A DNA stretch of 64,000 nucleotides from IMG/VR virus record IMGVR_UViG_3300037095_000059. One strand, written 5' to 3'. This stretch comes from a virus. Positions 41,226 to 63,842 of the stretch are shown here, in pieces. The notes under the pieces are model-generated. The model ran no database searches and was not told the origin of the DNA. It was given only the letters and a program-made list of their open reading frames with translations. The translations under genes and the position numbers were made by a program. The first letter of the stretch is position 1. Each line of letters opens with the position of its first letter.

Positions 41226-41393
41226 TTACTGCTGAGGCGGGGCTGGCGGGCATGTGGGCTCCAAAAGTTTTTCTGCTTCTTCGAGATATTCTTCGCACTG
41301 AGAACAAGTACAACCGCAATCTTCGTCGAGCCAAAGGTGGACAAGGAACCGAAATCTCTCGCAGGCTGACTTGTATTTTTCTAGGTCGGTCAT
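41226..41393 (-). CDS. small Cys-rich protein (55 aa)
   Basis: ATG 41393 overlaps the GIY-YIG stop (ATGA). DEDCGCTCSQCEE. Confidence 0.35.
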   Translation of the reverse strand: MTDLEKYKSACERFRFLVHLWLDEDCGCTCSQCEEYLEEAEKLLEPTCPPAPPQQ

Positions 41394-42196
41394 GGGGTCT
41401 CCACGTTCTTGACTCGAATTTCTTGTTCGGGGCCGAAGCCTACGCGGTTTGATAGCTGGTAGCCCAAAGCGACCGGGGGTTGCTGGAAGGAATCGAGAGG
41501 GAAAGTTGCTCTTCGGCGATCCCAAGCTCTCTCCATACTGGCTTTAATCTTAGCCTTGGTCTCTTCCGTCTGTTTTGTTCCCAGTTTGTGGTTTCCGGTG
41601 TGGTTCTTGGCGATGTTCGCTCGTCCTTCGGGAGTATGATGCTTTCCCGTATTAGCGGCGGACATGCGGGCCGCGTACTCGGGGTCTTTCCATCTTTCTT
41701 TGCATTTGTCCCCGATTAACTTCTTAATTTCATCCGTGTGGGGTTGACCCAGGTCGTGGCGACCAAACATCGGGTTGCGCTCCCCGACTAAAAGACCTTT
41801 ACGGGATTCTGAAGCTCGCTTCTTGTTCTCGGGGTTCTGCCACCACTCTTTGCTCTTCTTTGAAATCTTAACTTTGTTCTCTGGGAGGTGTCTACCAGCC
41901 CGACCACCCAACATTCTGTTATATCCAACAGAGGGGTCGGTGGCATTAAAATGAGCGATGTAGAAGGTTTCGAGTTCGTTGCCCTCTTCTCGACTGGGCG
42001 CCTCGTCTATTTTCTCAATAACGAAGGAGTCTTTTCCGTGGTCTCGAATTGCTTGGTGAAAATCTTGTGGGGCCTTCTTAACGAGGGCGTCGTACAAATG
42101 ACGACTCCAACGCCTCCGCAGAATCTGTACCGTCTGCCCGACGTAGATAATACCGTTAGTCGAGTCTGTGACTTTGTAAATGCTTACTGTTTCCAT
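41390..42196 (-). CDS. free-standing GIY-YIG homing endonuclease with NUMOD3-like repeats
   Basis: SIYKVTD..GIIYVGQT...RRWSRH...FYIAHFN GIY-YIG core. Repeated G(K/R)H.PE..(K/A).I.K motifs. Own promoter-like element. Confidence 0.8.
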   Translation of the reverse strand: METVSIYKVTDSTNGIIYVGQTVQILRRRWSRHLYDALVKKAPQDFHQAIRDHGKDSFVIEKIDEAPSREEGNELETFYIAHFNATDPSVGYNRMLGGRAGRHLPENKVKISKKSKEWWQNPENKKRASESRKGLLVGERNPMFGRHDLGQPHTDEIKKLIGDKCKERWKDPEYAARMSAANTGKHHTPEGRANIAKNHTGNHKLGTKQTEETKAKIKASMERAWDRRRATFPLDSFQQPPVALGYQLSNRVGFGPEQEIRVKNVETP

Positions 42197-42273
42197 TTTG
42201 TCCTCATCTTGCCATGAGGGTTTGGGGCCGAGGGCAAGCTCGACCCCTTACCGTCTGATTCGAATCTACTTGT

Positions 42274-42301
42274 ATTATACCACACTTTCATGCTTCTGCA
42301 A
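42274..42301 (-). promoter_or_regulatory. sigma70-like promoter candidate for the GIY-YIG gene
   Basis: Minus-sense TTGCAG-16 nt-TATAAT with an extended -10 TG (GTGTGGTATAAT). Confidence 0.4.
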
Positions 42302-42359
42302 CAAGTATTTTCGAACTATTTTCGTCCTAGCTGGACGATGTCTGCGCCTGAATACGCTG

Positions 42360-42581
42360 TCTGTTACCCGTTTAGAATCAACGGACTGACTCATTTCTGG
42401 TCAGTTCATACGGTTTTCTTTCCCGTATGGTCGGACTATTGCATGTCCTTTCGGACCCACTTCGCTTAGTCTCTCAGCCTGCTTTCGCTTGGCCCTCCTT
42501 GGCATTTCAGCGTCGGAGTCAATCAGAAGGGGTTTATCCTGCGCCGTTGTGTTAACGCAGTGTCATTGTAGAACCCGGCGG
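42360..42581 (-). ncRNA. group-I-intron-like ribozyme core A (ORF-less); boundaries approximate
   Basis: Homologous to core B. Elements: CUGCG..CGCAG hairpin, GCUGAAAUGC, GAGAGACUAAGCGA (P7/J7-3-like), GUCC-GAAA-GGAC P8, CAUACGG..CCGUAUG P9, terminal GUAACAGAC. Confidence 0.55.
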
Positions 42582-42836
42582 CTCTGTTACCTCGTCCAGG
42601 TAATGGACGCGGGCAAGTCGTTTCTGTTCCGCTTGCCTCATACGGTTCGTTTCCCGTATGCCCAGACTGTTGCATACCCTTTCGGGTCTTCTTCGCTCAG
42701 TCGTTCACGGTCTCTTTCGAGTTCCGCCTCGTTGGCATTTCAGCGTTCGAGTCAATCAGAAGAAGTTTTACCTGCGCCGATGTTTTAACGCAGTGTGTTG
42801 GTGTAGCGAACGTTGTAGCTCACCCACGGAGACTAC
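42582..42836 (-). ncRNA. group-I-intron-like ribozyme core B (ORF-less); boundaries approximate
   Basis: Starts right at the capsid exon-3 stop. Elements: CUUCUUCUG/CGAAGAAG P3, CUC-GAAA-GAG, ACCC-GAAA-GGGU P8, CAUACGG..CCGUAUG P9, motif hairpin 42594, terminal GUAACAGAG. Confidence 0.55.
42594..42608. repeat. 15-bp motif copy, F: gtccaggtaatggac
   Basis: Hairpin near the 3' end of group-I-like core B. Confidence 0.9.
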
Positions 42837-43021
42837 TTACATCAACTTTGTTGTCGGAGGCTGGGTTTGGTCACCACCGATTTGCCGAGCGGGGTCAGAA
42901 CTGGAACCCTGCTCAGGTGCGCTCTGGATAAACAGCTTGTAGTTCTTGCTGTTATCATTCGGGTTTTTGCCCAGGAAAACGCTGAAGATCGCGTCTTCAC
43001 CGAAAATATAAGTGTTATAAA
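42837..43021 (-). CDS. major capsid protein, exon 3 (to the first in-frame stop)
   Basis: (F)YNTYIFGEDAIFSVFLGKNPNDNSKNYKLFIQSAPEQGSSSDPARQIGG... is in frame with exon 2 once the 225-nt intron is removed. Confidence 0.6.
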
Positions 43022-43246
43022 CTCTCTGTTAACTGCTGTGTTATCAGCAAGATACGTCATTTCTGCGTATCTCTCATACTTCATTTCGTATGAGAACGGA
43101 CTATCGCATCGTCCATTACCTGGACGCCCCATCGTTTAGTCTCTCACGGTCCCTTTCGGGTTCCGCCTTGTTGGCTTCTCAGCTTCCAAGTCGATTAGAC
43201 GGGGTTCTCATTCGAGGGTTTCACCTCGATGACGCCTACATTATTG
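43022..43246 (-). mobile_element. group I intron 2 in the capsid gene (225 nt, ORF-less)
   Basis: P1 ACGU|C pairs with GGCGU (U.G at the splice site). P2 CAUCGAGG/CCUCGAAUG. P3 CCCCGUC/GAUGGGG. GCU-GAGA-AGC, CCC-GAAA-GGG, GAGAGACUAAA. P8 is motif copy 43111. P9 CUCAUAC/GUAUGAG. Ends in G. Confidence 0.7.
43111..43125. repeat. 15-bp motif copy, R: gtccattacctggac
   Basis: Forms the P8 hairpin of capsid intron 2. Confidence 0.9.
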
Positions 43247-43825
43247 ACGTGTTGCCACTTATAGTCACGGTCGGAGCAGTTGTGGTTTGTTTGAACGTTA
43301 CGCCAGCGAACGAGATAACATCCTCGTTCTTCGGCAGTTCAAACAGCATGGAACGCATGGAGTCGTCGCGCTTGATGATGTCGGACAATCCGTTGAAGGA
43401 CGTGTCGTTCAGGATGTCGCGGACCACTGACGGGTGAATGATTCCGCCAAATTTGTTGTCCACGAGCGGACGTGCGTTCACGGCTACCAGGGACTGAGCG
43501 GCGGAACGAACGTTGTTGGCCGTCAGGTAGGAACCGTTTGCGAGTTGAATGTTGACCAGGTTGTCAATCGCAACAGCCGAGTCAGCGGTAAGCTGGACAA
43601 GGGTGTTGAGGGTGAGGGCCAAGCGGTAGTTCAACTCATTTGCGAGATTCTGGAGTAGACCGGGGTCGTCGATTGCGACATCAAGTGCGAGGTCGCTAGA
43701 ATTTATAAAATCGGCGTATTGCCCAATTGTGGCCAAAATCTTGTTGCTGGATTCAGAGATCGGACTTCCGACAGTGCCTTCTGCGGACTGGTTCAGGTTA
43801 GCGGAAAGCAGTGCGTAGGTGTAGA
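43247..43825 (-). CDS. major capsid protein, exon 2
   Basis: (F)YTYALLSANLNQSAEGTVGSP...ATIGQYADFINSSDLALD...GGIIHPSVVRDIL... is an HK97-fold capsid-like pattern. Open upstream of the ORF-track start. Confidence 0.7.
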
Positions 43826-43835
43826 CTTTATGTGT

Positions 43836-44723
43836 TTAGGCCGTCAGCATCTCTGCTGGGGCGCTCTCGTCGTCGCCGACGAGAACAGGCTGTGTCTTCG
43901 GATTATTGAGAAAACGAATTGCATCGCACAACTTCTTACGAAGCTCCCTATTTGGAGTTCTTGGAAGACGGACAAGCTCTAGAGCTATCTTGGCTTGCGG
44001 CCTCTTTGTTCTCAGGTAGGGTAGCACTTGGAGTAGAAAACTTTTGCGGTTCTCTTTTCCGGTGAGTTCCCAAGTGTAGAACTCTCTGGTGTTTCCTTTG
44101 GCTTCTTGCGTGTGAAACCACCCGCCGTACAACCGCAGAAACAACTGGATAAGAGGGGCATAATTGTTGCCCATTCTAATTCGTAGCATCGGTTTACCGT
44201 CAGGAGTAAAAGCTGCTGATATGCAACCTTCGCCGTCCATGATTCCGGCCACGTATGCGTGCGTTAGTTTGTCTTCAACAAACCCGTCTAGCGTGTCAGT
44301 CGTTACGCATTCCCTGTTTTTCATCCCCCGGATTTTGTCCATCAACTCTTTGCGTTTCGATGGGTTCTGCTGATCGCCGAGGTCGTAGAACTCCTGAAGT
44401 ACCAGAGCCTCTTCCTTTTTGATTCGCAGATACGGAAGGATATAAGAGAGAAATTGTGGGGCGGCATTCCTGCCGTTGATGTTCCACTGATACCAAACTT
44501 GGCCGCGTGCTGGCGTGTGCTTGGTGTAGAAGCCCCCAAAAGTTTCGACTAGCCCCTTTACCAGGGACAGTTCAACGCTGCTCATAACGATTCTAGGTTG
44601 GTAAGGAGTTGCTTTTCCGCCTTCTTTTACAGTCGGCTTGTATATCGAAAAGCACCCTTCCGCGTCCATCAAACCAGCGGCGTAGGCTTTTGTTCTTTCT
44701 CTCATAGGGTCTTTGCTCGGCAT
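43836..44723 (-). CDS. double-motif LAGLIDADG homing endonuclease (intron-encoded)
   Basis: Two LAGLIDADG motifs, YAAGLMDAEGCFSI and YVAGIMDGEGCISA. GGAG RBS before ATG 44723. Confidence 0.85.
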   Translation of the reverse strand: MPSKDPMRERTKAYAAGLMDAEGCFSIYKPTVKEGGKATPYQPRIVMSSVELSLVKGLVETFGGFYTKHTPARGQVWYQWNINGRNAAPQFLSYILPYLRIKKEEALVLQEFYDLGDQQNPSKRKELMDKIRGMKNRECVTTDTLDGFVEDKLTHAYVAGIMDGEGCISAAFTPDGKPMLRIRMGNNYAPLIQLFLRLYGGWFHTQEAKGNTREFYTWELTGKENRKSFLLQVLPYLRTKRPQAKIALELVRLPRTPNRELRKKLCDAIRFLNNPKTQPVLVGDDESAPAEMLTA

Positions 44724-44737
44724 TGTCTGCTCCAATT

Positions 44738-44769
44738 ATTATACTACCACACCGATAGTATTTTGTCAA
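44738..44769 (-). promoter_or_regulatory. sigma70-like promoter candidate inside intron 1, upstream of the LAGLIDADG ORF
   Basis: Minus-sense TTGACA-17 nt-TAGTAT (or 20 nt to TATAAT). Shares GTGTGGTA..TATAAT with the GIY-YIG promoter candidate. Confidence 0.4.
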
Positions 44770-44815
44770 GCAGATTTTCACCGATTTAGCTAGATTTTAA
44801 TTCAGCACCATAGAT

Positions 44816-44978
44816 ACTGAATCTGGTTGCCTTGGCGCAACGGCAGCGGACGCTGCTTGGTCATGCTAAGGAATGGAGTGTTTGCCTTCAGGTTAGGAAT
44901 TGCTTCCCGCTCGTAGTGAATTGCTACCAAGTTGGGGAGAGCGCCCGAGGTGACTATACTGGCTGGTGAATAACTCAT
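44816..44978 (-). CDS. major capsid protein, exon 1
   Basis: AAAGGAG RBS, then MSYSPASIVTSGALPNLVAIHYEREAIPNLKANTPFLSMTKQRPLPLRQGNQIQ. The unspliced frame stops 4 codons later. Confidence 0.7.
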
Positions 44979-44996
44979 TTGAGTTACTCCTTTGTG

Positions 44997-46136
44997 TTAG
45001 ATAGAGCGCCGACTTTTTGCAATGTGCATCTGAGTTGCCCGCCACAATGCTTGGTGGGCTTCGTCTGACATATTGTTTAAGTCCTCGGCTGAGGGCGCTG
45101 TGAGGGTCTCGGGCGGCGCGACGGGTGTTACGTCGTTTCTCCCAATTCCCAAAGCCGCTCTCGGGCGCGTCACCACTTGAACAATCCGTTCGTTGGGGCG
45201 CGGCGCAGGCAGTGCCGGTCCGTTTGACGGAACCGCTACCGGCGGAGTGGGTTCGGCCTGTGGTTCAGGCGGAATTTGTCTTGACCTCGGGGCCGTGAGT
45301 AGCAATCCATCGCTGCTCAGGTCCGCAAAAGCCTCTTCAATGTTTGAAACTGTCCATTGTCCGGCGGAGTGAAGATCGAACATATTCGCGTCGGGTTTGC
45401 CGAGCTTGAACTTGCTCAGCCAGCGGACAATGAGGTTGAAATTCTTTCCCTCTCTGTCCGGGTAATAGTCGGGGTTCCTTCGAACAAACTCCTCGCCCAC
45501 GGCCCCGGTTTCGAGGTTGGCGTCCGCGTTCGCTCCCTTTTGCGCCAAGGAGAACACTTCGTCCATTGTTACTCCCCGTGTCTTTTGCATCAGAGCATCG
45601 AAGGCAGCAGAGGGATCGGATTCCCACATGGTCTTGATCTCGAAGACTTCGTCCGCCGTCAGCTTCCGGGTAGTGGTCGCCATCTTTGGCGTGGCGGGCT
45701 GCGCGGGGGCGGGCGTTCCGAACTTCAGCTTCCCACTCAACTCCCGGATTTTCTTCGTGGCGTTCAGCTTGCCGGTCAGAACGTTAATCAGAAGCTCGTC
45801 TTTGTTCTTGCCCCAGAAGACCTCCGGTTTAGCGCCAGTGCCTGGGTCGAGCACAGCCTTCCACTGCCCTTTTTCCTTCGTGCGGGTAACGTAGGCCCCG
45901 TCTTCCAACTGAAAGACTTCCGGGCCTTCGGGCTCGGGCTCCACTACGGGAACAACGATCTCTGGTTCCGGCTGAGGATAGTTTGTAACTATCTCCGGAG
46001 TGATTAAGGGGTGCTCGTCCAAAAGGTCGGGGTTGATCTCGTCCAAGTGGGTTGCGCTAAAATCAACGTTGTTGAAAGGGTCGGGGGTGCCGTCTGAATT
46101 GAGGGCCCAGGGATCAATTACTGGTTGGTTTGCCAT
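44997..46136 (-). CDS. scaffolding protein candidate (379 aa)
   Basis: Lies between the portal-proximal genes and the capsid gene. Acidic and Pro-rich with predicted helical stretches. Called on position only. Confidence 0.4.
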   Translation of the reverse strand: MANQPVIDPWALNSDGTPDPFNNVDFSATHLDEINPDLLDEHPLITPEIVTNYPQPEPEIVVPVVEPEPEGPEVFQLEDGAYVTRTKEKGQWKAVLDPGTGAKPEVFWGKNKDELLINVLTGKLNATKKIRELSGKLKFGTPAPAQPATPKMATTTRKLTADEVFEIKTMWESDPSAAFDALMQKTRGVTMDEVFSLAQKGANADANLETGAVGEEFVRRNPDYYPDREGKNFNLIVRWLSKFKLGKPDANMFDLHSAGQWTVSNIEEAFADLSSDGLLLTAPRSRQIPPEPQAEPTPPVAVPSNGPALPAPRPNERIVQVVTRPRAALGIGRNDVTPVAPPETLTAPSAEDLNNMSDEAHQALWRATQMHIAKSRRSI

Positions 46137-58566: not shown

Positions 58567-58648
58567 TGGAGCGGAAGACGGGATTCGAACCCGCATGTCA
58601 AAGACAGTTGCTTGGAAGGCAACGGCTCTACCACTGAGCGACTTCCGC
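58567..58648 (-). tRNA. tRNA-Gly(UCC) with an extra variable-region hairpin
   Basis: Anticodon arm GUUGC-CUUCCAA-GCAAC. T-loop UUCGAAU. CCA encoded. 12-nt variable region UGUC-UUU-GACA. Confidence 0.75.
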
Positions 58649-58656
58649 ATGAAACT

Positions 58657-58730
58657 TGGTAGGCGACTGTGGAATCTAACCACAATGACACCCCTATCGA
58701 GGGTGCGTCCTAACATTGGACGAGTCGCCC
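58657..58730 (-). tRNA. tRNA-Ile(GAU)
   Basis: CACCC-UCGAUAG-GGGUG (C at position 33). CCA encoded. Confidence 0.7.
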
Positions 58731-58735
58731 GTAAA

Positions 58736-58811
58736 TGGTGTGGTCGGCAGGACTCGAACCTGCGGTGAACTGGGTGTAGGCCAGCCGATTTAGCCGCTAA
58801 TCTACGACCAC
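58736..58811 (-). tRNA. tRNA-Val(UAC)
   Basis: GCUGG-CCUACAC-CCAGU (C33). T-loop UUCGAGU. CCA encoded. Confidence 0.7.
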
Positions 58812-58816
58812 AGAAA

Positions 58817-58891
58817 TGGGGCGCGTAGCCGGAATCGAGCCGACATTCTGACCTTCGGAGGGTCGAGTTCTGTCCGTTGAACTATACGCGC
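58817..58891 (-). tRNA. tRNA-Arg(CCG)
   Basis: Anticodon loop CUCCGAA. Acceptor GCGCGUA/UACGCGC. CCA encoded. Confidence 0.75.
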
Positions 58892-58895
58892 AAAC

Positions 58896-58971
58896 TGGAA
58901 CCGACCACGGGACTTCAACCCGCATCAACTTCGTTAGGACCGAAGGGCTCTGTGCATTGAGCTAAGTCGGC
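58896..58971 (-). tRNA. tRNA-Arg(CCU)
   Basis: CUUCG-GUCCUAA-CGAAG. CCA encoded. Confidence 0.75.
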
Positions 58972-58975
58972 GAAA

Positions 58976-59050
58976 TGGAAACCCCATCCGGAGTCAAACC
59001 GGAATCTAACGAATAGAAGCCGTTGCTCTCTTCCCTTGAGCTATGGGGTC
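58976..59050 (-). tRNA. tRNA-Arg(UCU)
   Basis: AACGG-CUUCUAU-UCGUU. CCA encoded. Confidence 0.7.
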
Positions 59051-59056
59051 AAAATT

Positions 59057-59132
59057 TGGTGCCTCGCCAGGGAATTGAACCCTGTCCAATCGGCTTAAAA
59101 GGCCGTTATGCCAGCCATCACACTCACGAGGC
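59057..59132 (-). tRNA. tRNA-Lys(UUU)
   Basis: CGGC-CUUUUAA-GCCG. T-loop UUCAAUU. CCA encoded. Confidence 0.7.
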
Positions 59133-59180
59133 AACGTTTGTCGTCCTCGGATTTTCGACTTGTCATAACGTCCTCCAAAA

Positions 59181-59257
59181 TGGTGGGTCGCCAGGAACTC
59201 GAATCCTGCTCTGTCGGGTAAGAACCGACTGCTTCAAACCATCAAAGCTTGCAACCC
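59181..59257 (-). tRNA. tRNA-Lys(CUU)
   Basis: GUCGG-UUCUUAC-CCGAC. T-loop UUCGAGU. CCA encoded. Confidence 0.8.
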
Positions 59258-59258
59258 G

Positions 59259-59352
59259 TGGTAGGCGACCAGGGGGTCGAACCCTGCCGTTGCGCTATTC
59301 GAGGCGCTCTCCCGGGGATATAAAGCCCAGCCGCACACCGATGCTATCGCCC
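59259..59352 (-). tRNA. class II (long variable arm) tRNA-like gene with an enlarged anticodon loop; identity unresolved
   Basis: Good acceptor, T arm (CAGGG-UUCGACC-CCCUG) and variable arm (GCGC..GCGC). The anticodon stem closes an 8-9 nt loop CUUUAUAU(C). Confidence 0.5.
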
Positions 59353-59718
59353 AAAACTTTTGTCCATTAACCGGACAATATCCTTCTTCAACTGTGCAAC
59401 CTTCGCGGGCGGCATGTACAACTCGCCCTTCTTGACCAAGGCTATTCCTCCCTTTTTCACCGTGCCGCCTTTGTGAAAAGTAGCGGGAGACGCTTTGCTA
59501 AAATTGGGAGTCGGCAGGCTCGGGGTGTAGCTGGGGCCCGGGGCTTGCCTTGTATTCGCTTGTAGATCGTCTGTTGTTGCTGCGCGAGCAGCGGCGTTCT
59601 TGGCTTCAGCGGCCTGCATAGCAGAGCCCACGGCCCCGACGGCGGACCCTACTTTCTGCTTAGTGGTCTGCGGTGTTTTGGAGTCCGGTTTGTCGGTGCC
59701 TACCATTGCGTTTGCCAC
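59344..59718 (-). CDS. hypothetical protein embedded in the tRNA array
   Basis: 124-aa ORF with an A/T/K-rich N-terminus. C-terminus VRLMDKSFGR is read through motif copy 59362. The stop lies inside the adjacent tRNA-like gene. Confidence 0.4.
   Translation of the reverse strand: MANAMVGTDKPDSKTPQTTKQKVGSAVGAVGSAMQAAEAKNAAARAATTDDLQANTRQAPGPSYTPSLPTPNFSKASPATFHKGGTVKKGGIALVKKGELYMPPAKVAQLKKDIVRLMDKSFGR
59362..59376. repeat. 15-bp motif copy, R: gtccattaaccggac
   Basis: Near the C-terminus of 59344..59718 (VRLMD), 10 nt from a tRNA-like gene. Confidence 0.9.
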
Positions 59719-59738
59719 GTATTCTCCTTGTGTTGTCT

Positions 59739-59812
59739 TGGTGCCGCACGAGCTAATCGAAAGCTAACTCCGAAGTCCTTATGAGAGACTCGTCCAACCT
59801 TTGGTGCGCGGC
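59739..59812 (-). tRNA. tRNA-Met(CAU)-type (Met, fMet or Ile2 not distinguished); reduced D arm
   Basis: AGUCU-CUCAUAA-GGACU. D arm CCAA-AGG-UUGG. CCA encoded. Confidence 0.6.
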
Positions 59813-59858
59813 TTACGCAAACTGCGTACATTTGTACTCAAAACGAGTACATTCAAAA

Positions 59859-59933
59859 TGGCAGGAGATGTAGGATTTTAACCTACAAGTTCCGTTTTGG
59901 AGACGGACAGTTTGACATTGAGCTTAATCTCCC
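59859..59933 (-). tRNA. tRNA-Trp(CCA)
   Basis: UCCGU-CUCCAAA-ACGGA. CCA encoded. Confidence 0.75.
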
Positions 59934-59940
59934 GTAAAAC

Positions 59941-60015
59941 TGGTGCCCGGTAGAGGAGTCTAACCTCTGTCTCGAAGTTCGTAGCTTCGTGTCTTATACG
60001 TTATACGAACCGGAC
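59941..60015 (-). tRNA. tRNA-Arg(ACG)
   Basis: CGAAG-CUACGAA-CUUCG. CCA encoded. Confidence 0.75.
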
Positions 60016-60086
60016 TCAGCGCGAATCGAATCGAACGATTTCCACGAGCATCCGAGGCTCGGAGGCGACCACTACCCCACGCACTG
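60016..60086 (-). tRNA. tRNA-Pro(CGG)
   Basis: C1-G72 acceptor pair. CGAGC-CUCGGAU-GCUCG. T-loop UUCGAUU. No CCA encoded. Confidence 0.7.
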
Positions 60087-60093
60087 CTTAATA

Positions 60094-60169
60094 TGGTCAG
60101 CGGGCCGGGCTCCGCTTCCGGGACACGTGCTTCCGGAGCACGGAGGTTACTAGGCTACACTACCCACTG
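60094..60169 (-). tRNA. tRNA-Pro(CGG)-like, atypical T-loop
   Basis: C1-G72. CGUGC-UCCGGAA-GCACG (C33). T-loop AGCGGAG. CCA encoded. Confidence 0.5.
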
Positions 60170-60175
60170 ATAAAT

Positions 60176-60249
60176 TGGTCTGGGAGGGGAATTATGCTAT
60201 CCCGACACAAGCTTCCAGAGCTTGGATGTTTCTTCTACACTACTCCCAG
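60176..60249 (-). tRNA. tRNA-Pro(UGG), atypical T-loop
   Basis: C1-G72. CAAGC-UCUGGAA-GCUUG (C33). T-loop AGCAUAA. CCA encoded. Confidence 0.55.
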
Positions 60250-60250
60250 G

Positions 60251-60327
60251 TGGTCAGGGCGGTGGGAAATCGAACCCACTCCACAAGTCTCCCAGACTTG
60301 GATGCACAACCTCTACACTACACCCTG
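60251..60327 (-). tRNA. tRNA-Pro(GGG)
   Basis: C1-G72. CAAGU-CUGGGAG-ACUUG. CCA encoded. Confidence 0.7.
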
Positions 60328-60335
60328 ATAAAACA

Positions 60336-60413
60336 TGGTGCGGATTCAGCGAATCGAACGCTGTTCTTTCGCTCTTCAGGCGAACGCTAAATCACCAGAC
60401 TAGCTCAATCCGC
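60336..60413 (-). tRNA. tRNA-Phe(GAA)
   Basis: UUCGC-CUGAAGA-GCGAA. T arm CAGCG-UUCGAUU-CGCUG. CCA encoded. Confidence 0.8.
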
Positions 60414-60505
60414 AAAACTGTGCGTGGTCTCTCCCCGCCGTCACTCCACTCAGCCCCAGGCGATCAACGGGAGACTGCTGCCGCAGGTGTCGCGGTTCTC
60501 AGCTT

Positions 60506-60569
60506 TGGTGGACCAGGAGGGGCTTGATTCCTCGCGCAGACGCTTGCATCCATCTGAAAGTACTGGCCC
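60506..60569 (-). ncRNA. 64-nt tRNA-like element lacking a D arm (CCA-ended)
   Basis: Acceptor GGGCCAG/CUGGUCC, T-arm-like GAGGA-AUCAAGC-CCCUC, central CAGAUG-GAUGCAAG-CGUCUG hairpin, ACCA end. Confidence 0.35.
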
Positions 60570-60581
60570 ATTGTTAAACCA

Positions 60582-60806
60582 CTACCAAATATCCCATGCC
60601 ACAGTCTTTTTCACAGCAGGCATTTCTTTCTCCTGCGCGACTGCTGCCGTTGCAGCACGTCGATACTTGCGATTCCTGATCTTTGCCCAGGATTTACGCC
60701 CCGGCCATGCTCCACCATAAGCGCCAGGATAACCACAGAGTTTGCGCCACGCCTCACGAGTCGCTTCCTGTATCTTCCAAGGCATCGTGTTAATCGTTCG
60801 GGACAC
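60582..60806 (-). CDS. small basic W/R-rich protein embedded in the tRNA array
   Basis: 74-aa ORF. GTG start 7 nt after GAGGAG. Confidence 0.4.
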   Translation of the reverse strand: MSRTINTMPWKIQEATREAWRKLCGYPGAYGGAWPGRKSWAKIRNRKYRRAATAAVAQEKEMPAVKKTVAWDIW

Positions 60807-60823
60807 AACTTACTCCTCAAACT

Positions 60824-60879
60824 TGGTGGAGCCTGTTGTCAGCCACCGGATCGCGCCCGGCCCCATGATGGTTTACATT
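60824..60879 (-). ncRNA. CCA-ended hairpin or minihelix (tRNA remnant?)
   Basis: GGGGCC...GGCUCC-ACCA acceptor-like pairing enclosing CCGG-GCGCGAU-CCGG. No full cloverleaf. Confidence 0.3.
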
Positions 60880-60954
60880 TGGTGGAAAAGAGGAGAATCG
60901 AACTCCTACCTACTGGGTGCAGACCAGTCGTGCTCCCATTACCACTACTTCCCC
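60880..60954 (-). tRNA. tRNA-Ala(UGC)
   Basis: G3.U70 wobble present. ACUGG-UCUGCAC-CCAGU (C33). T-loop UUCGAUU. CCA encoded. Confidence 0.75.
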
Positions 60955-60991
60955 ACATTTCAAACTTACGCCGAGGTCCTACCTTAGATGA

Positions 60992-61129
60992 TGGTGCGGA
61001 ACTCACCGCATATTCCAGGGAGAGTCGAACTCCCGTTTCTCGGCGCTTCTCGCCAGACGCTTTACCCAAAGCTACTAGGTGGTTTTACCCGGGCCTAGTC
61101 CGGACTCGAACCGGATTCTTCTGGCTGCT
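60992..61129 (-). ncRNA. composite of tRNA-like fragments (two T arms, one D arm, CCA-ended hairpin); no intact cloverleaf found
   Basis: UCCGG-UUCGAGU-CCGGA and GGGAG-UUCGACU-CUCCC T arms, GCUU-UGGGUA-AAGC D arm, 3' GCGG-UGAGUU-CCGC-ACCA. Confidence 0.35.
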
Positions 61130-61205
61130 TGGAGGGAAGGGGACGAGTTGAACGTCCTAGAGAGTGGATTCACAGACCACCGCCGCACCGTTTGGCTTCC
61201 GACCC
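61130..61205 (-). tRNA. tRNA-His(GUG)-like (two acceptor-stem mismatches)
   Basis: GUGGU-CUGUGAA-UCCAC. T arm GGACG-UUCAACU-CGUCC. CCA encoded. Confidence 0.55.
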
Positions 61206-61313
61206 AAAATTTTCCGAGCTTTAGGCTGATCTGCTGGCCAGCTAAAGGGCTAGGCCCACGATCAACTTTTCACTGCACCCTATTTCTAGGGGGTACCCGG
61301 TGTAGGACTTGTT

Positions 61314-61328
61314 GTCCATTACCTGGAC
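61314..61328. repeat. 15-bp motif copy, R: gtccattacctggac
   Basis: Spacer in the tRNA array, between the His and Thr blocks. Confidence 0.9.
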
Positions 61329-61384
61329 GAATCTTGAAGCAAGGTTTACTCTGAAACCCGGCAGAAAAGTCAGACCACTTCGTT

Positions 61385-61412
61385 TGGTAGAACCAGGCAG
61401 GTGTCGCCTGTG
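61385..61412 (-). ncRNA. T-arm/acceptor-like minihelix ending in CCA, immediately 3' of tRNA-Thr(UGU)
   Basis: CAGGC-GACACCU-GCCUG followed by GUUCUA-CCA. There is no room for a 5' half. Confidence 0.3.
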
Positions 61413-61487
61413 TGGAGCGCCCGGACAGATTCAAACTGCCTTCTCCCGGGTACAGGCCGGGCGAATCTTCTGGTATTCTTCAGGCGC
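61413..61487 (-). tRNA. tRNA-Thr(UGU)
   Basis: CCCGG-CCUGUAC-CCGGG (C33). D arm GAAU/AUUC. CCA encoded. Confidence 0.75.
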
Positions 61488-61556
61488 AAATCTCAACTAA
61501 AGACATTGTACCACAGCAGTCTTCAGCTTGTCAACAACTATTTCAGAAAAACTTTG

Positions 61557-61630
61557 TGGAGCCGACGAGGGGAGTTCAACCCCTATTTCTGACGTACCAG
61601 GTCAGCGTTGTAGCGTTGAACCACATCGGC
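61557..61630 (-). tRNA. tRNA-Thr(GGU)
   Basis: CUGAC-CUGGUAC-GUCAG. CCA encoded. Confidence 0.8.
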
Positions 61631-61631
61631 T

Positions 61632-61705
61632 TGGAGCCCGGTCGGGGAATTCAACCCCGGTCTTCGCGGTACGAAGGCGAAAGTCTAGCACTGACCTAAC
61701 CAGGC
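61632..61705 (-). tRNA. tRNA-Thr(CGU)
   Basis: UCGCC-UUCGUAC-CGCGA (one stem mismatch). T arm CGGGG-UUGAAUU-CCCCG. CCA encoded. Confidence 0.7.
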
Positions 61706-61708
61706 GTT

Positions 61709-61723
61709 GTCCATTATCTGGAC
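61709..61723. repeat. 15-bp motif copy, R: gtccattatctggac
   Basis: 3 nt upstream (5') of tRNA-Thr(CGU). Confidence 0.9.
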
Positions 61724-61907
61724 GAAACATTGCCGCTTGAGGGCCGGATGCTTCCCCGGCTTTTACGAACCGCGTGGTAGGGCGGCCAACCTCGGAGTGC
61801 GCATCTCCTGCGGCAAACTAATCGCGCCGTTCCGACCTGCTTAGACCTTCCATAGAAGGCGAGGTTTGCAACCCTCGACAGGCACCTTTCTGGATACTGC
61901 GCGAACT
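61724..61907 (-). ncRNA. unassigned structured spacer S1 (~185 nt)
   Basis: Multiple hairpins: GAGG-GUUGCAAA-CCUC, CCUUC-UAUG-GAAGG, GCCGG-GGAAGCAU-CCGGC. Internal ...CCGCCCUACCA. No cloverleaf found. Confidence 0.35.
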
Positions 61908-61982
61908 TGGAGCGAAGGACCAGACTCGAACTGGCGTCTACGGACTGGCAATCCGAGGTACTAGCCGCTGTACGACCTTCGC
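61908..61982 (-). tRNA. tRNA-Gly(GCC)
   Basis: CGGA-UUGCCAG-UCCG. T arm GCCAG-UUCGAGU-CUGGU. CCA encoded. Confidence 0.8.
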
Positions 61983-61987
61983 AAAAA

Positions 61988-62062
61988 TGGCAGGGGGTAC
62001 TGGAATTGAACCAGTCTTCAGGGCTTCAAAGACCCTTACCTAAACCAATCGGTCAACCCCCT
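61988..62062 (-). tRNA. tRNA-Gln(UUG)
   Basis: AGGGU-CUUUGAA-GCCCU. CCA encoded. Confidence 0.75.
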
Positions 62063-62067
62063 AAACT

Positions 62068-62141
62068 TGGCTCGGGCAGATGGAATCCAACCACCGCCAT
62101 TCGGGTCAGAGCCGAATGTCCTAGCACTAAACGATGCCCGA
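62068..62141 (-). tRNA. tRNA-Gln(CUG)
   Basis: U1-A72. UUCGG-CUCUGAC-CCGAA. CCA encoded. Confidence 0.75.
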
Positions 62142-62149
62142 TTAAATTT

Positions 62150-62225
62150 TGGCTCACCCGGAGGGCCACGATCCCCCAACCTCTCGGTTAACAGCCGAGC
62201 GTTCTGCCAATTGAACTACAGGTGA
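62150..62225 (-). tRNA. tRNA-Asn(GUU)
   Basis: CUCGG-CUGUUAA-CCGAG. D arm GUUC/GAAC. CCA encoded. Confidence 0.8.
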
Positions 62226-62235
62226 ACATTAAACT

Positions 62236-62312
62236 TGGTAGGGTTGATGGAGCTTGCATCCATTAGGGCCTGCGTGAAGGGCAGGGTGCTCGACTACTTT
62301 GCATTCAACCCC
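62236..62312 (-). tRNA. tRNA-Glu(UUC)
   Basis: CCUGC-CCUUCAC-GCAGG (C33). T arm AUGGA-UGCAAGC-UCCAU. CCA encoded. Confidence 0.7.
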
Positions 62313-62404
62313 AAAACTAAAACGGATGGTGGCCCTACACTTCTTACGCCACTGTCGATGAGGCTTAACTTCCCCTCGTTGCCGAGTGTTGCATCCGTTT
62401 AACT
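62313..62404 (-). ncRNA. unassigned ~90-nt structured element S4 closed by an 8-bp helix
   Basis: AACGGAUG...CAUCCGUU closing stem. Internal CUCG-GCAA-CGAG hairpin and an internal GGGCCACCA. Confidence 0.35.
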
Positions 62405-62478
62405 TGGCGGCCTACCAGGGAGTCAAACCCTGATCGTGAGGATGAGGACCTCACATCCTGTCGTTAGAAGAGTAGGCC
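62405..62478 (-). tRNA. tRNA-Glu(CUC)
   Basis: UGAGG-UCCUCAU-CCUCA (C33). T arm CAGGG-UUUGACU-CCCUG. CCA encoded. Confidence 0.75.
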
Positions 62479-62752
62479 AAAACATGGCCGACTTACATCC
62501 CGAAGGAAAGCGGCAAAACTTTGCCGGTCTTTCCCGGCGGTCAGGAGTAGCACTAATCGAGCCTTCTTAACCACGCTCGGGTGGAACCATCAAGGTGAGG
62601 GGTTGCCCACGGTTTCCAAACCGTCTCGTTACTGGACTTCGCTGTGCTCACCACAGCCGCCCTATCCGAGTAGCGCGGAAGAAGGGTGCTCAATTAGCTC
62701 CTTGAGACGGAGGGGAGCCTGTACAAGCCTACCGGCGGGTACAACATCAAAA
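62479..62752 (-). ncRNA. unassigned structured spacer S2 (~270 nt)
   Basis: Dense hairpins: GCUGUG-GUGAG-CACAGC, ACGGUU-UGGA-AACCGU, CCGG-GAAAGA-CCGG, UCC-UUCG-GGA. Long-range CCCGCC/GGGCGG pairing. No ORF and no cloverleaf. Confidence 0.4.
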
Positions 62753-62831
62753 TGGCGCGAGCGAGGGGACTCGAACCCCCGAATAAATCCTCATGGACAG
62801 TGAGGTGCAGTTGCCGCTGTGCTACGCCCGC
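62753..62831 (-). tRNA. tRNA-Asp(GUC)
   Basis: CCUCA-CUGUCCA-UGAGG. T arm GGGGG-UUCGAGU-CCCCU. CCA encoded. Confidence 0.75.
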
Positions 62832-62992
62832 GTAAGATTGTACTCCAGATTATAAGAGATGAATTTTATCACATCTCCCGCTGCCGGGGTATTAAGTCCA
62901 TTGTCTGGATGAAGTTCGCAGTATTTGTCCCACGCAGTCTTGTGCGGACATGGTCTGCTGTAATAATTAGAAATACATTCTTCCAGATTCAT
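62822..62992 (-). CDS. small Cys-containing protein (56 aa) embedded in the tRNA array
   Basis: GAGGAAG RBS. MNLEECISNYYSRPCPHKTAWDKYCELHPDNGL... The degenerate motif 62896 is read as HPDNGL. The stop lies inside tRNA-Asp. Confidence 0.35.
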   Translation of the reverse strand: MNLEECISNYYSRPCPHKTAWDKYCELHPDNGLNTPAAGDVIKFISYNLEYNLTRA

Positions 62993-63004
62993 GCTTCCTC
63001 AAAT

Positions 63005-63081
63005 TGGTTCAGGGAGGGCGATTCGAACGCCGCTATTCATTCGAGCTTATGAGGCTGAATGCCACACCAACGGGCCCCTGT
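63005..63081 (-). tRNA. tRNA-Met(CAU)-type, atypical (A1.A72 mismatch, long anticodon stem)
   Basis: Anticodon loop CUCAUAA. T-loop UUCGAAU. CCA encoded. Confidence 0.55.
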
Positions 63082-63102
63082 ATAAACATTATACCACAAA
63101 AC

Positions 63103-63193
63103 TGGTGCAAGCAGAGGGATTCGAACCCCCAATGTCATCAAAGATAATCCAGATTTACAGTCTGGCGCACCCAACCGTATGTGCCTTACTTGC
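63103..63193 (-). tRNA. tRNA-Tyr(GUA), class II
   Basis: CCAGA-CUGUAAA-UCUGG. D arm GCAC/GUGC. Long variable arm. CCA encoded. Confidence 0.8.
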
Positions 63194-63194
63194 G

Positions 63195-63279
63195 TGGAGG
63201 AGAGCAGCCGAATCGAACGGCCATCCTTGCGGAGCCCCGGTTTTCAAGACCGGCTGTATCACCATCAACAGTGCTCTCC
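63195..63279 (-). tRNA. tRNA-Ser(UGA)
   Basis: CCGGU-CUUGAAA-ACCGG. Long variable arm. CCA encoded. Confidence 0.8.
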
Positions 63280-63525
63280 AAAACTTACCGCAATCCCTGC
63301 GGCCTCACTTTCTGAGCGGTTCAGAGGAAGTGTGTTCAGTAACCCCGAATCCAGGGTGAGCCTTACAGACCGCTAGCGGTACAACGTCAAAACTTAACTC
63401 CCCGACTTCTACGCGACACCTTGCTGAGCTTGTCAGGGCCAGCCGGGCTCGGGGAACCGGGTCATATTCCAACCCTTTGACAAGGGAATAAGGAACAGGG
63501 GACGACCGGCGGCACACGTCAAACA
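63280..63525 (-). ncRNA. unassigned structured spacer S3 (~245 nt)
   Basis: GC-rich helices (CCGG..CCGG, GAGCCCGGCU, ACCGCUAGCGGU palindrome, CUCAC../..GUGAG). No ORF and no cloverleaf. Confidence 0.35.
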
Positions 63526-63612
63526 TGGCGGAAGATGAAGTATCGAAACCTTGTCCATTATCTGGACAGCACCGGGTTCGAGCCGGTTTGGGCACCTTGC
63601 CCGCCATCTTCC
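63526..63612 (-). tRNA. tRNA-Ser(CGA) whose variable arm is a copy of the 15-bp motif
   Basis: ACCGG-CUCGAAC-CCGGU. Variable arm GUCC-AGAUAAU-GGAC (motif copy 63553). Weak T stem. CCA encoded. Confidence 0.65.
63553..63567. repeat. 15-bp motif copy, R: gtccattatctggac
   Basis: Forms the variable arm of tRNA-Ser(CGA). Confidence 0.9.
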
Positions 63613-63617
63613 TAAAA

Positions 63618-63703: not shown

Positions 63704-63749
63704 ATTAAGGAAAAACTACCTACTTTTTCTTGCACAAAACTTGACAAAA

Positions 63750-63837: not shown

Positions 63838-63842
63838 AAACT

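What the first reader, a model, noticed from the sequence alone, without database searches (positions are those of the whole stretch)
42197..42836. Two more homologous group-I-like cores lie in tandem after the capsid stop, followed by a free-standing GIY-YIG endonuclease
Two roughly 200-250-nt elements, B (42836-42582) and A (42581-42360), lie between the first in-frame capsid stop (42837) and the GIY-YIG gene. They align with each other over most of their length and share the core architecture of capsid intron 2. Shared parts include the P2-like CUGCG..CGCAG, P3 pairs, GNRA-capped P5, P6 and P8, GAGAGACUAAG or CGACUGAG at P7, the CAUACGG..CCGUAUG P9, and a GUAACAGAG/GUAACAGAC tail.

I could not find convincing P1 helices or exons for them. 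Short open frames do flank them: ...AGFYN between B and A, and TAYSGADIVQLGRK-stop after A. The capsid protein might therefore extend through two further micro-exons.

Alternatively they may be intron remnants in the 3' UTR. They may also work with the adjacent promoter-bearing GIY-YIG gene, either as collaborative homing of ORF-less introns by a free-standing endonuclease or as a twin-ribozyme-like arrangement upstream of a homing endonuclease gene. Any of these outcomes would be unusual.
Basis: partly seen in the sequence, partly recalled or inferred. Interest (0 to 1): 0.72.

Follow-up and report, generated by a model that had tools for sequence, protein, structure and literature searches.

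The report
Tandem capsid introns plus core-less mini-intron
The two elements are real, compact self-splicing-type (group I) introns that cut the end of a phage capsid gene into tiny coding pieces, and just upstream lies a 46-base insert with a group I intron's splice-site guides but no catalytic core, which may be a new helper-dependent kind of intron.

Summary
A (42554-42357, 198 nt) and B (42787-42579, 209 nt) are ORF-less group I introns on the minus strand.

Removing five insertions gives a 327-aa capsid colinear with intron-less homologues.

Twenty-nine family members support the fold by covariation, including the P3/P7 pseudoknot and the bulged G-binding P7. A covariance model built only from other phages hits A, B and intron 2, and nothing else in the window. 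Rfam's group I model misses this family but detects related introns that share its 3' half.

The closest precedent is phage Twort orf142, which has two similar introns around a 23-nt exon. GIY-YIG genes co-occur with insertions at these sites, so collaborative homing is plausible but untested.

The most novel item is the 46-nt insert at 42872-42827. It has P1 and P10 guides, follows a U and ends in G, but has no core. Relatives carry such mini-introns at four capsid sites, and each lies 16-52 nt upstream of a full-size intron.

The parts
42873..43021 (-). Capsid exon 3 (codons 249-297), ending ...ARQIGG with GGT at 42875-42873
   Evidence: Colinear with the intron-less homologue P0001.
42827..42872 (-). 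46-nt core-less mini-intron. It follows U and ends in G. The P10 guide ACCCA (42866-42862) sits directly 5' of the P1 guide GCCUCC (42861-42856).
   Evidence: It is absent from intron-less homologues and shifts the frame by +1. The guides pair with both flanking exons (12 bp, shuffle p 0.012). Twelve distinct homologous or analogous inserts occur in related phages.
42788..42826 (-). Micro-exon 4, 39 nt, WVSYNVRYTNTLR (codons 298-310)
   Evidence: 13 of 13 residues identical to P0001. Its last 6 nt, CUGCGU, form the 5' strand of B's P1.
42579..42787 (-). Intron B, 209 nt, ORF-less group I intron. Helices: P1 guide 42777-42772; P3 42765-42759 with 42694-42688; P7 42702-42698 with 42669-42665, plus A42705-U42664 beyond bulged C42703; tail GUAACAGAGCCG ending in omega-G at 42579.
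   Evidence: Covariance model 137.4 bits, E 1.4e-29. Helices mapped. The 3' splice site was fixed by comparison with B-type introns in L059, L042, L039 and L060. MFE z-score is -3.96.
42555..42578 (-). Micro-exon 5, 24 nt, PGSTMTLR (codons 311-318)
   Evidence: 8 of 8 residues identical to P0001. It ends in the same ACACUGCGU as exon 4.
42357..42554 (-). Intron A, 198 nt, ORF-less group I intron. Helices: P1 guide 42544-42539; P10 guide ACG 42547-42545; P7 42471-42467 with 42438-42434, plus G42473-C42433 beyond bulged A42472; omega-G at 42357.
   Evidence: Covariance model 123.4 bits, E 2.1e-26. Helices mapped. MFE z-score is -3.84. A 90%-identical intron sits at codon 310 in L056.
42327..42356 (-). 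Micro-exon 6, RIQAQTSSS plus the TAG stop: the true end of the capsid gene
   Evidence: Matches the RLQSETSSS-stop ending of homologues.
42197..42326 (-). Spacer holding TGGTATAAT (a perfect -10 with an upstream TG) and two hairpins. The second hairpin overlaps the ribosome-binding region of the GIY-YIG ORF.
   Evidence: Read directly from the sequence. The consensus scan did not list it because the -35 is weak. No terminator-like site was found on this strand between 45100 and 41300.
41390..42196 (-). Free-standing GIY-YIG homing-endonuclease-like ORF, 268 aa
   Evidence: Pfam GIY-YIG 38 bits and NUMOD3 23 bits. Homologues lie just downstream of the capsid gene in 15 of 27 loci with C-terminal insertions, against 2 of 33 without.
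43022..43246 (-). Capsid intron 2, 225 nt. Same family as A and B but with a P2 hairpin.
   Evidence: Covariance model 141 bits. It is precisely absent from the closely related contig L081.
43826..44815 (-). Capsid intron 1, 990 nt, carrying a LAGLIDADG ORF (44723-43836). Given as context only.
   Evidence: It follows U and ends in G, with an 8-bp P1. Pfam LAGLIDADG_1.

Best explanation
A and B are two related, ORF-less, compact group I introns of about 200 nt. They sit in the last 30 codons of an N4-gp56-type major capsid gene, after codons 310 and 318. Both sites end in the same nine bases, ACACUGCGU (the Thr-Leu-Arg codons).

In each intron the guide GCGCAG pairs with exon CUGCGU to form P1, with the splice-site U opposite G. 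The core is a P3/P7 pseudoknot with a reduced P4-P6 domain. P7 carries a bulged base next to an invariant G-C pair, which is the guanosine-binding site. Each intron ends in G.

Inferred steps: after transcription, each intron removes itself by the two guanosine-initiated transesterifications. This joins micro-exons of 39, 24 and 27 nt to the body of the gene, so that a 327-aa capsid protein is made. The apparent stop at 42837 lies inside a third, 46-nt insert that must also be removed.

The introns belong to a family that has spread to at least eight sites in the capsid genes of a clade of uncultured phages. Spread probably occurs by homing, helped by free-standing and intron-borne endonucleases, or by reverse splicing into sites that match the guide. 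A looks like a copy of a codon-310 intron that moved to the look-alike site 24 nt downstream.

Shown here: homology, fold, splice-site rules and exon continuity. Inferred: catalytic activity, the mode of spread and any role of the GIY-YIG enzyme.
For: Exons: intron-less homologues of 327-329 aa end in ...ARQIGGWVSYNVRYTNTLRPGSTMTLRRLQSETSSS. Joining the six window exons at U|...G| boundaries gives 984 nt, or 327 codons, with no stop. The product is 297/327 identical to P0001 without gaps, and 27/30 over the part beyond the apparent stop.

Fold: in a MAFFT alignment of 29 distinct members, RNAalifold on its own predicts P3, P4, P5, P6, P8, P9 and P9a, and 34 of 38 pairs show compensatory changes. 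My full structure with P1, P2, the P7 pseudoknot and P9b has 92.9% of cells paired, against 35-41% when partners are slid. 48 of 60 pairs have double changes, and 0 of 500 shuffles reach the observed values. The P7 pair G171-C213 is invariant, and the pair beyond the bulge switches from G-C to A-U in 7 sequences.

Independent model: a covariance model built from 21 members at other sites in other phages, none above about 80% identity to A or B, finds exactly three hits in the 64-kb window. These are intron 2 (141 bits), B (137.4) and A (123.4).

Single-sequence folds recover the same helices, with z-scores of -3.8 and -4.0.

Link to curated group I introns: Rfam RF00028 scores 14 other introns of the same capsid genes at 51-65 bits. 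Those share J6/7-P7 (AGAGACUA), J8/7-P7' (GAUGNNAUAGUC), P9, the CAGAAAUGA loop and the GUAACA tail with A and B.

Splice-site rule: 86 of 139 distinct insertions in related loci sit at U|...G| as placed by a blind DNA aligner, against about 10 expected by chance.

P1 follows the exon: CUGCGU/GCGCAG versus CUCCGU/GCGGAG at both codon 310 (L039) and codon 318 (L049).

Mobility: intron 2 is precisely absent from L081. Between the window and L081, the mini-insert, exon 4, B and exon 5 are 98-100% identical and A is 96.5%, while exons 2 and 3 are 89-93%. An intron 90% identical to A occupies codon 310 in L056.

No terminator-like site was found on this strand across the region.
Against: No RNA or protein data exist: splicing is inferred.

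Rfam's Intron_gpI model gives no hit to A, B or intron 2 even at E <= 10 on a 461-nt query.

The P4-P6 domain is unusually small, with P4 of 4 bp and P5 of 2 bp. Self-sufficiency in vitro is therefore not assured, and a protein or neighbouring-RNA helper may be needed.

B has only 1 bp of P10.

A and B have identical guides. That invites skipping of exon 5, as seen in phage Twort.

A search for a spliced or intron-less copy of this exact gene found nothing.
Confidence: 0.86

Rival explanations
1. A and B are group I introns that are not independently self-splicing. They would act together as one large ribozyme, or depend on a protein cofactor, and skipping of the 24-nt exon 5 would be a regular and possibly regulated outcome, giving a capsid 8 residues shorter.
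For: A and B have identical P1 guides and identical 9-nt 5' exon ends. The P4-P6 domain is very reduced. In Twort orf142, two similar introns around a 23-nt exon do skip the exon, and engineered tandem introns around a 24-nt exon do both (PMC10136302).
Against: PGSTMTLR is conserved in all full-length homologues, so inclusion must be the main product. Each intron has a complete set of core helices supported by covariation. Family members also occur singly, for example as the only full-size intron in L006.
Confidence: 0.1
2. The elements are decaying intron relics in the 3' untranslated region. On this view the capsid ends at the TAA at 42839-42837.
For: An in-frame stop follows ...QIGGDQTQPPTTKLM. 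Gene callers in public data end such genes there (P0078).
Against: The truncated protein would lack 30 residues that are conserved in over 100 homologues. Those residues are encoded, in order and without error, in three pieces exactly between the elements. The core helices show compensatory changes, not decay. The same architecture is kept in L081 and L059.
Confidence: 0.02
3. The tandem ribozymes mainly serve expression of the downstream GIY-YIG gene, in a twin-ribozyme-like way or by processing its mRNA.
For: They lie upstream of the endonuclease ORF. Hairpins cover its ribosome-binding region.
Against: The ORF lies outside both introns, 130 nt beyond the capsid stop, and has its own -10 element. 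Neither element resembles a branching ribozyme, and both have ordinary splice sites that flank coding exons. Family members occur at many capsid sites with no endonuclease gene nearby.
Confidence: 0.02

Closest known systems
Staphylococcus phage Twort orf142 introns 2 and 3 (Landthaler and Shub 1999, as summarised in PMC10136302)
   Same: Two highly similar ORF-less group I introns sit in one phage gene, separated by a micro-exon (23 nt there, 24 nt here). The gene also holds further introns.
   Different: The Twort introns are subgroup IA2 and were shown to splice and to skip the exon. Here the introns are a smaller family with a reduced P4-P6 domain, have identical guides, are untested, and are preceded by a core-less mini-intron.
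Compact bacterial group I introns of the Azoarcus / cyanobacterial tRNA type, and Rfam RF00028
   Same: They are about 200 nt long, with P7 GACUA/UAGUC, a bulged base, J6/7 ...AGA and a short P9 region. RF00028-positive introns in the same capsid genes share the 3' half with A and B.
   Different: A and B lack P2, have a 4-bp P4 and a 2-bp P5, and do not reach any reportable RF00028 score. Assignment to a subgroup was not tested. The resemblance to Azoarcus rests on my memory of that sequence.
Collaborative (trans) homing: free-standing F-CphI with the cyanophage psbA intron, and T4 mobE with the nrdB intron (PMC3984707, PMC2790892)
   Same: ORF-less introns lie next to a free-standing homing-endonuclease gene with its own expression signals. 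The endonuclease gene and the introns co-occur across relatives.
   Different: No cleavage site is known here. An intron-less relative (L003) has an HNH-like gene in the same slot, so the slot may simply be a landing place for endonuclease genes.
Engineered trans-excision-splicing ribozymes and 'spliceozymes' (PMC2532722, PMC4094466)
   Same: A group I core removes an internal segment from another RNA. It uses P1 and P10 pairing and a G at the end of the removed segment, which is what the 46-nt mini-intron would need.
   Different: In the engineered systems the guides are on the ribozyme. Here they are on the excised segment, and the arrangement is natural and conserved.
Phage T4 gene 60 50-nt translational bypass
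   Same: A short insert of about 50 nt with a stop codon interrupts an essential phage gene, in a region rich in homing endonucleases.
   Different: There are no matched take-off and landing codons in the right frame. In seven relatives the Trp codon is split by the insert (U|...|GG), which only RNA joining can repair.

Membership tests
Group I intron | The 5' splice site follows a U that pairs with G of an internal guide sequence in P1 | tested here: met
   In both A and B, exon CUGCGU pairs with GCGCAG at intron positions 11-16, 6 bp ending in U.G. The guide changes with the exon in relatives (CUCCGU/GCGGAG).
Group I intron | The intron ends in G (omega-G), and removing it restores the reading frame | tested here: met
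   A ends ...ACAGACAG| and B ends ...AGAGCCG|. The joined exons give a 327-aa capsid colinear with P0001. 86 of 139 insertions in relatives fit U|...G|, against about 10 expected.
Group I intron | Conserved core: P3-P8 and P4-P6 domains, with P3 and P7 forming a pseudoknot | tested here: met
   92.9% of cells are paired, 48 of 60 pairs show double changes, and slid controls give 35-41%. RNAalifold finds the nested helices on its own.
Group I intron | Guanosine-binding site: a G-C pair in P7 next to a bulged nucleotide | tested here: met
   G171-C213 is invariant in all 29 sequences. Column 170 is a bulged A or C, and the closing pair 169-214 covaries between G-C and A-U.
Group I intron | Reaches the gathering score of Rfam RF00028 (50 bits) | tested here: not met
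   No hit even at E <= 10. The same search scores 14 related capsid introns at 51-65 bits. I take this as a limit of that one model, because its consensus has a larger P4-P6 domain.
Group I intron | Guanosine-dependent self-splicing | not testable with these tools
   Needs in vitro transcription and splicing, or RNA from infected cells.
Twort-type tandem homologous introns around a micro-exon | Two similar group I introns separated by an exon of a few tens of nucleotides in one phage gene | tested here: met
   A and B are 77% identical and are separated by 24 nt.
Twort-type tandem homologous introns around a micro-exon | Exon skipping observed | not testable with these tools
   Identical guides make it possible, but no RNA data exist.
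Collaborative homing (free-standing endonuclease plus ORF-less intron) | ORF-less intron with a free-standing homing-endonuclease gene nearby | tested here: met
   No ORF longer than 50 aa lies in A or B. A GIY-YIG plus NUMOD3 ORF lies 130 nt past the capsid stop.
Collaborative homing (free-standing endonuclease plus ORF-less intron) | The endonuclease cuts intron-less alleles at or near the intron insertion site | not testable with these tools
   Only co-occurrence is available. GIY-YIG homologues follow the capsid gene in 15/27 loci with C-terminal insertions against 2/33 without (Fisher p 3e-5; loci are not independent). The split is 11 of 13 loci with an insertion at codon 310 or 318, against 0 of 6 with only the codon-303 intron.
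Twin-ribozyme intron | Two ribozymes and an endonuclease ORF inside one intron, one ribozyme being a branching or capping ribozyme | tested here: not met
   A and B are separate introns with their own splice sites and a coding exon between them. The ORF is outside both.
Programmed translational bypass (for the 46-nt insert) | Matched take-off and landing codons flank the gap in the correct frame | tested here: not met
   In the window, GGU recurs only out of frame. In L006, L052, L067, L039, L085, L087 and L088 the Trp codon is split across the insert.

The most novel reading that the evidence does not exclude
The 46-nt insert at 42872-42827, and the 11 other distinct inserts of 38-59 nt characterised in related phages (longer ones of about 58-67 nt in four further contigs), would be a natural class of non-autonomous, 'guide-only' group I introns. 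Each keeps a P1 guide, an adjacent P10 guide, a short tail and a terminal G, but has lost the whole catalytic core. The catalytic core of the full-size group I intron that always lies 16-52 nt downstream (B in this window) would excise it, in cis before that intron leaves or in trans afterwards. That would be a natural counterpart of engineered trans-excision splicing. It would also be a group I parallel to the step from self-splicing to helper-dependent introns. The tandem pair B-24 nt-A would be the ancestral state: contig L049 has a 38-nt mini-intron at B's site, followed by the same 24-nt exon and a full intron at A's site.
Probability: 0.5. Interest if true: 0.9.

Novelty: new variant of a known kind. 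Interest (0 to 1): 0.74.

Why it matters
Taken alone, A and B add a new compact subfamily of group I introns that the standard Rfam model cannot see. They also give a second natural case, after phage Twort, of similar introns flanking a micro-exon.

This has a practical consequence. Gene callers truncate these capsid genes: many database entries end at ...QIGG plus a few junk residues. Intron density in uncultured phages is therefore under-counted.

The larger point is the mini-intron. If it is removed by a neighbour's catalytic core, it would be the first natural group I intron that depends on another intron's ribozyme. It would show how self-splicing introns can decay into helper-dependent ones, and it would give a simple in vitro system to test that.

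Tried and rejected
- Rfam at gathering threshold on the whole window, and at E <= 10 on 3.8 kb and on 461 nt: no group I hit for A, B or intron 2. I do not accept this as evidence against a group I fold, because the same model detects sister introns and the fold is supported independently.
- blastn ('distant' mode) of 42200-45000 against 50,697 phage records: no match.
- A 3' splice site for B after ...GUAACAGAG (which would give PPGS): rejected, because B-type introns in L059, L042, L039 and L060 all end just before CCN GGN.
- +1 frameshifting across the 46-nt insert: impossible, since the incoming frame closes (TAA) before the outgoing frame opens (after TAG).
- Translational bypass: no matched codons, and the Trp codon is split in relatives.
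- Exact look-up of the conceptually spliced 327-aa protein: not in the collection.
- One metagenome scan for the spliced exon 3-exon 4 junction: it found only another intron-bearing phage contig (L082), so there is no direct evidence of splicing.
- Search for near-identical pairs of intron-less and intron-bearing capsid genes among 81 loci: none above 91%.
- Literature searches for phage mini-introns or micro-exons with group I introns: nothing relevant.
- Database proteins ending ...KLAA or ...REAA, which looked like further mini-introns: they turned out to be full-size introns (L083, L084).
Full report
**What is there**

All genes in this part of the window run on the minus strand. An N4-gp56-type major capsid gene starts at 44978.

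A protein search with the obvious exons found more than 270 homologues. Most are 327-329 aa, about 30 residues longer than the apparent window protein. They all end ...SDPARQIGGWVSYNVRYTNTLRPGSTMTLRRLQSETSSS.

A three-frame translation of the window shows those 30 residues in three pieces and in other frames than the one entering from exon 3:
- WVSYNVRYTNTLR (42826-42788)
- PGSTMTLR (42578-42555)
- RIQAQTSSS-stop (42356-42327)

The gene model has six exons:
- 44978-44816
- 43825-43247
- 43021-42873
- 42826-42788
- 42578-42555
- 42356-42327

Joined, they give 984 nt, or 327 codons, with no stop. The product is 297/327 identical to the intron-less homologue P0001 without any gap, and 27/30 over the last 30 residues. 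Each of the five insertions follows a U and ends in a G.

**A and B are group I introns**

Exon CUGCGU pairs with GCGCAG at intron positions 11-16, and the splice-site U lies opposite G. A also has a 3-bp P10 (ACG with exon CGU). B has only 1 bp.

I collected relatives by fetching 80 capsid loci from IMG/VR, plus contigs found through truncated proteins. BLAST and nhmmer then found dozens of copies of the A/B/intron-2 family, at eight or more different capsid sites.

Evidence for the fold:
- A plain MAFFT alignment of 29 distinct copies was folded by RNAalifold. It predicted P3, P4, P5, P6, P8, P9 and P9a, with compensatory changes in 34 of 38 pairs.
- I added P1, P2, P9b and the P7 pseudoknot and counted pairs. 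92.9% of cells are paired, against 35-41% for slid partners. 48 of 60 pairs have changes on both sides, and no shuffle in 500 reached the observed values.
- P7 has the group I signature. There is an invariant G-C pair, a bulged A or C beside it, and a closing pair that switches from G-C to A-U in seven sequences.
- Single-sequence folding of A and B recovers the same helices, with z-scores of -3.8 and -4.0.
- A covariance model built only from 21 members at other sites in other phages hits the 64-kb window exactly three times. The hits are intron 2 (141 bits), B (137 bits, E 1e-29) and A (123 bits, E 2e-26).

**Why Rfam is silent**

RF00028 gives nothing for A, B or intron 2, even at E <= 10 on a 461-nt query. 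The same model scores 14 other introns of these capsid genes at 51-65 bits.

Those introns align with A and B from J8/7 through P7', P9, the CAGAAAUGA loop, P9b and the GUAACA tail. They also share the AGAGACUA segment of J6/7-P7.

So the A/B family is a relative with a shrunken P4-P6 domain (P4 of 4 bp, P5 of 2 bp), and with no P2 in A and B. I file it as a group I intron on the structural tests, and I record that the Rfam score test is not met.

**Boundaries**

| Element | Window coordinates | Length |
|---|---|---|
| B | 42787-42579 | 209 nt |
| A | 42554-42357 | 198 nt |

B's 3' end was fixed by comparison. All introns at this site in L059, L042, L039, L060 and L056 end just before CCN GGN (Pro-Gly).

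**Mobility**

Both insertion sites end in ACACUGCGU (Thr-Leu-Arg codons), followed by C.
- The nearest relative of A outside the sister contig L081 is a 90%-identical intron at codon 310, which is B's site, in L056.
- Codon 318 is also occupied in L059, L068, L079 and L049.
- The guide follows the exon: CUCCGU/GCGGAG in L039 (codon 310) and L049 (codon 318).
- Between the window and L081, exons 2 and 3 are 89-93% identical. The mini-insert, exon 4, B and exon 5 are 98-100% identical, A is 96.5% and the GIY-YIG gene is 97%. Intron 2 is precisely absent from L081.

This is the mosaic pattern expected of recently exchanged mobile DNA.

Related capsid genes carry from 0 to about 10 insertions each. 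As placed by a blind aligner, 86 of 139 distinct insertions obey U|...G|, against about 10 expected by chance.

**The GIY-YIG gene**

The 268-aa ORF (42196-41390) has GIY-YIG and NUMOD3 domains. It lies 130 nt past the true capsid stop, behind TGGTATAAT and two hairpins. It is therefore free-standing.

Co-occurrence with capsid insertions:

| Loci compared | With a GIY-YIG homologue within 1.5 kb downstream |
|---|---|
| Insertion after codon 285 | 15 of 27 |
| No such insertion | 2 of 33 |
| Insertion at codon 310 or 318 | 11 of 13 |
| Only the codon-303 intron | 0 of 6 |

The first comparison gives Fisher p 3e-5, but the loci are not independent.

This fits collaborative homing (PMC3984707) but does not prove it. 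An intron-less relative (L003) has an HNH-like ORF in the same slot.

**The 46-nt insert**

It cannot be read through: the incoming frame closes before the outgoing one opens.

It begins with a hairpin. The 3' arm, GCCUCC, pairs with the last bases of exon 3 (GGUGGU, ending in U.G). The five bases just 5' of that arm, ACCCA, pair with the first bases of exon 4 (UGGGU). This is the P10-P1 guide layout of a group I intron. The insert follows U and ends in G, but it has no room for a core.

I found 12 distinct inserts of this kind (38-59 nt), in 14 loci, at four capsid sites: codons 30, 186, 297 and 310. Further copies of about 58-67 nt lie in L085-L088.
- Each has 11-17 bp of contiguous P10-plus-P1 pairing with its own exons. 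Per-element shuffle p values are 0 to 0.019. Pairing with exons of other sites averages 3.4 bp.
- Both guides change with the exons. Examples are GGAGGGU/GCCCUCC and GGUGGAU/GUCCACC for P1, and GGUGC/GCACU, CCCUA/UAGGG and GAAGGCG/CGCCUUU for P10.
- In seven contigs the Trp codon is split (U|...|GG), which rules out ribosomal bypass.
- Every case is followed, after a micro-exon of 16-52 nt, by a full-size intron. The product of the chance probabilities over 10 lineages is about 1e-7.5. In L006 that intron is the only full-size intron in the gene.
- L049 has a 38-nt mini-intron at B's site, then the same 24-nt exon, then a full intron at A's site.
- Several tails keep a (G/A)UAAC-type motif like the family's 3' tail.
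- No full-size intron was seen at codon 297 in any locus.

My reading is that these are core-deleted group I introns excised by the neighbour's core. Engineered trans-excision splicing and 'spliceozymes' show the chemistry is feasible (PMC2532722, PMC4094466). This is inference. There is no RNA evidence, and a scan for the spliced junction found nothing useful.

**Comparison and novelty**

The tandem pair closely parallels Twort orf142 introns 2 and 3, which flank a 23-nt exon and show exon skipping. On their own, A and B are therefore a new member of a known kind, in a subfamily that Rfam misses. Their identical guides make skipping of exon 5 possible.

The mini-intron, and the sheer fragmentation of these capsid genes, go beyond what I could find described.

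**Verdict**

The finding is real. Its micro-exon interpretation is right in substance, and it points to something more unusual immediately next to it.

Noticed in passing
window 42827-42872 (-); also L081 824-869, L042 4954-4999, L059 4900-4958, L076 4851-4906, L080 1358-1414, L006 3681-3732, L052 4898-4937, L067 5319-5364, L039 5121-5165, L057 4559-4597, L064 4559-4605, L069 4090-4141, L049 about 2985-3022, and L085-L088: Core-less 'mini-introns' of 38-67 nt. Each has a P1 and a P10 guide, follows U and ends in G, and always lies 16-52 nt upstream of a full-size intron. They occur at capsid codons 30, 186, 297 and 310.
   Followed up: yes
L006 3688, L064 4564, L067 5323: Mini-introns at different capsid sites (codons 297 and 186) share the P1-loop sequence AGCAGCAU(A/G)A but have different guides. 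This hints that mini-introns spread as such, or that the loop has a function such as docking to a helper.
   Followed up: partly
window 42841-42827 (-): The tail of the window's mini-intron (AUGUAAGUAGUCUCCG) resembles J8/7 plus the P7 3' strand of the full-size family (AUGCAAUAGUCCG). It could pair with B's P7 5' strand GACUG. This is not seen in all mini-introns and remains unexplained.
   Followed up: partly
window 42793-42788 with 42777-42772, and 42560-42555 with 42544-42539 (-): A and B have identical P1 guides and identical 9-nt 5' exon ends. Cross-use of splice sites would skip exon 5 and give an in-frame capsid lacking PGSTMTLR.
   Followed up: no
window 43826-44815 (-): Capsid intron 1 is 990 nt with a LAGLIDADG ORF and an 8-bp P1. 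No Rfam hit was found, and its ribozyme core must overlap the ORF. Homologous endonuclease-bearing introns sit at the same site (codon 55) in L040, L058, L055 and L072, while other relatives carry a 228-nt ORF-less intron there; the one checked, in L042, is RF00028-positive.
   Followed up: partly
window 44752-44738 and 42289-42276 (-): Both endonuclease ORFs (LAGLIDADG and GIY-YIG) are preceded by the same motif, GTGTGGTA(G)TATAAT. It may be a phage-specific promoter type for the mobile genes.
   Followed up: no
window 42257-42200 (-): Two hairpins lie just upstream of the GIY-YIG start: GGGGUCGAG...CUCGGCCCC and CCUCAU...AUGAGG. The second overlaps the ribosome-binding region and might limit translation from read-through capsid transcripts.
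   Followed up: no
81 related loci (L001-L081): Capsid genes of this uncultured phage clade carry 0 to about 10 insertions, at roughly 20 or more sites. L067 has 10 insertions. Many public protein entries for them are truncated at intron boundaries (for example ...QIGG plus 3-17 junk residues).
   Followed up: partly
L003 5120-5659: An intron-less relative has a 179-aa ORF with an HNH-like motif between the capsid gene and the conserved downstream small ORF. This is the slot where the window has GIY-YIG.
   Followed up: no
window 58570-63925 (-): An array of 21 tRNA genes.
   Followed up: no
L039 6262-6505: A permuted tmRNA (Rfam RF04321, 77 bits) lies on a related phage contig, about 800 nt downstream of the capsid gene.
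   Followed up: no
L082 80-345: In another relative, the codon-303 intron begins and ends with the same 15-nt stretch, UUCGUUUUUGAAAC, which forms a hairpin at the 3' end. Unexplained.
   Followed up: no
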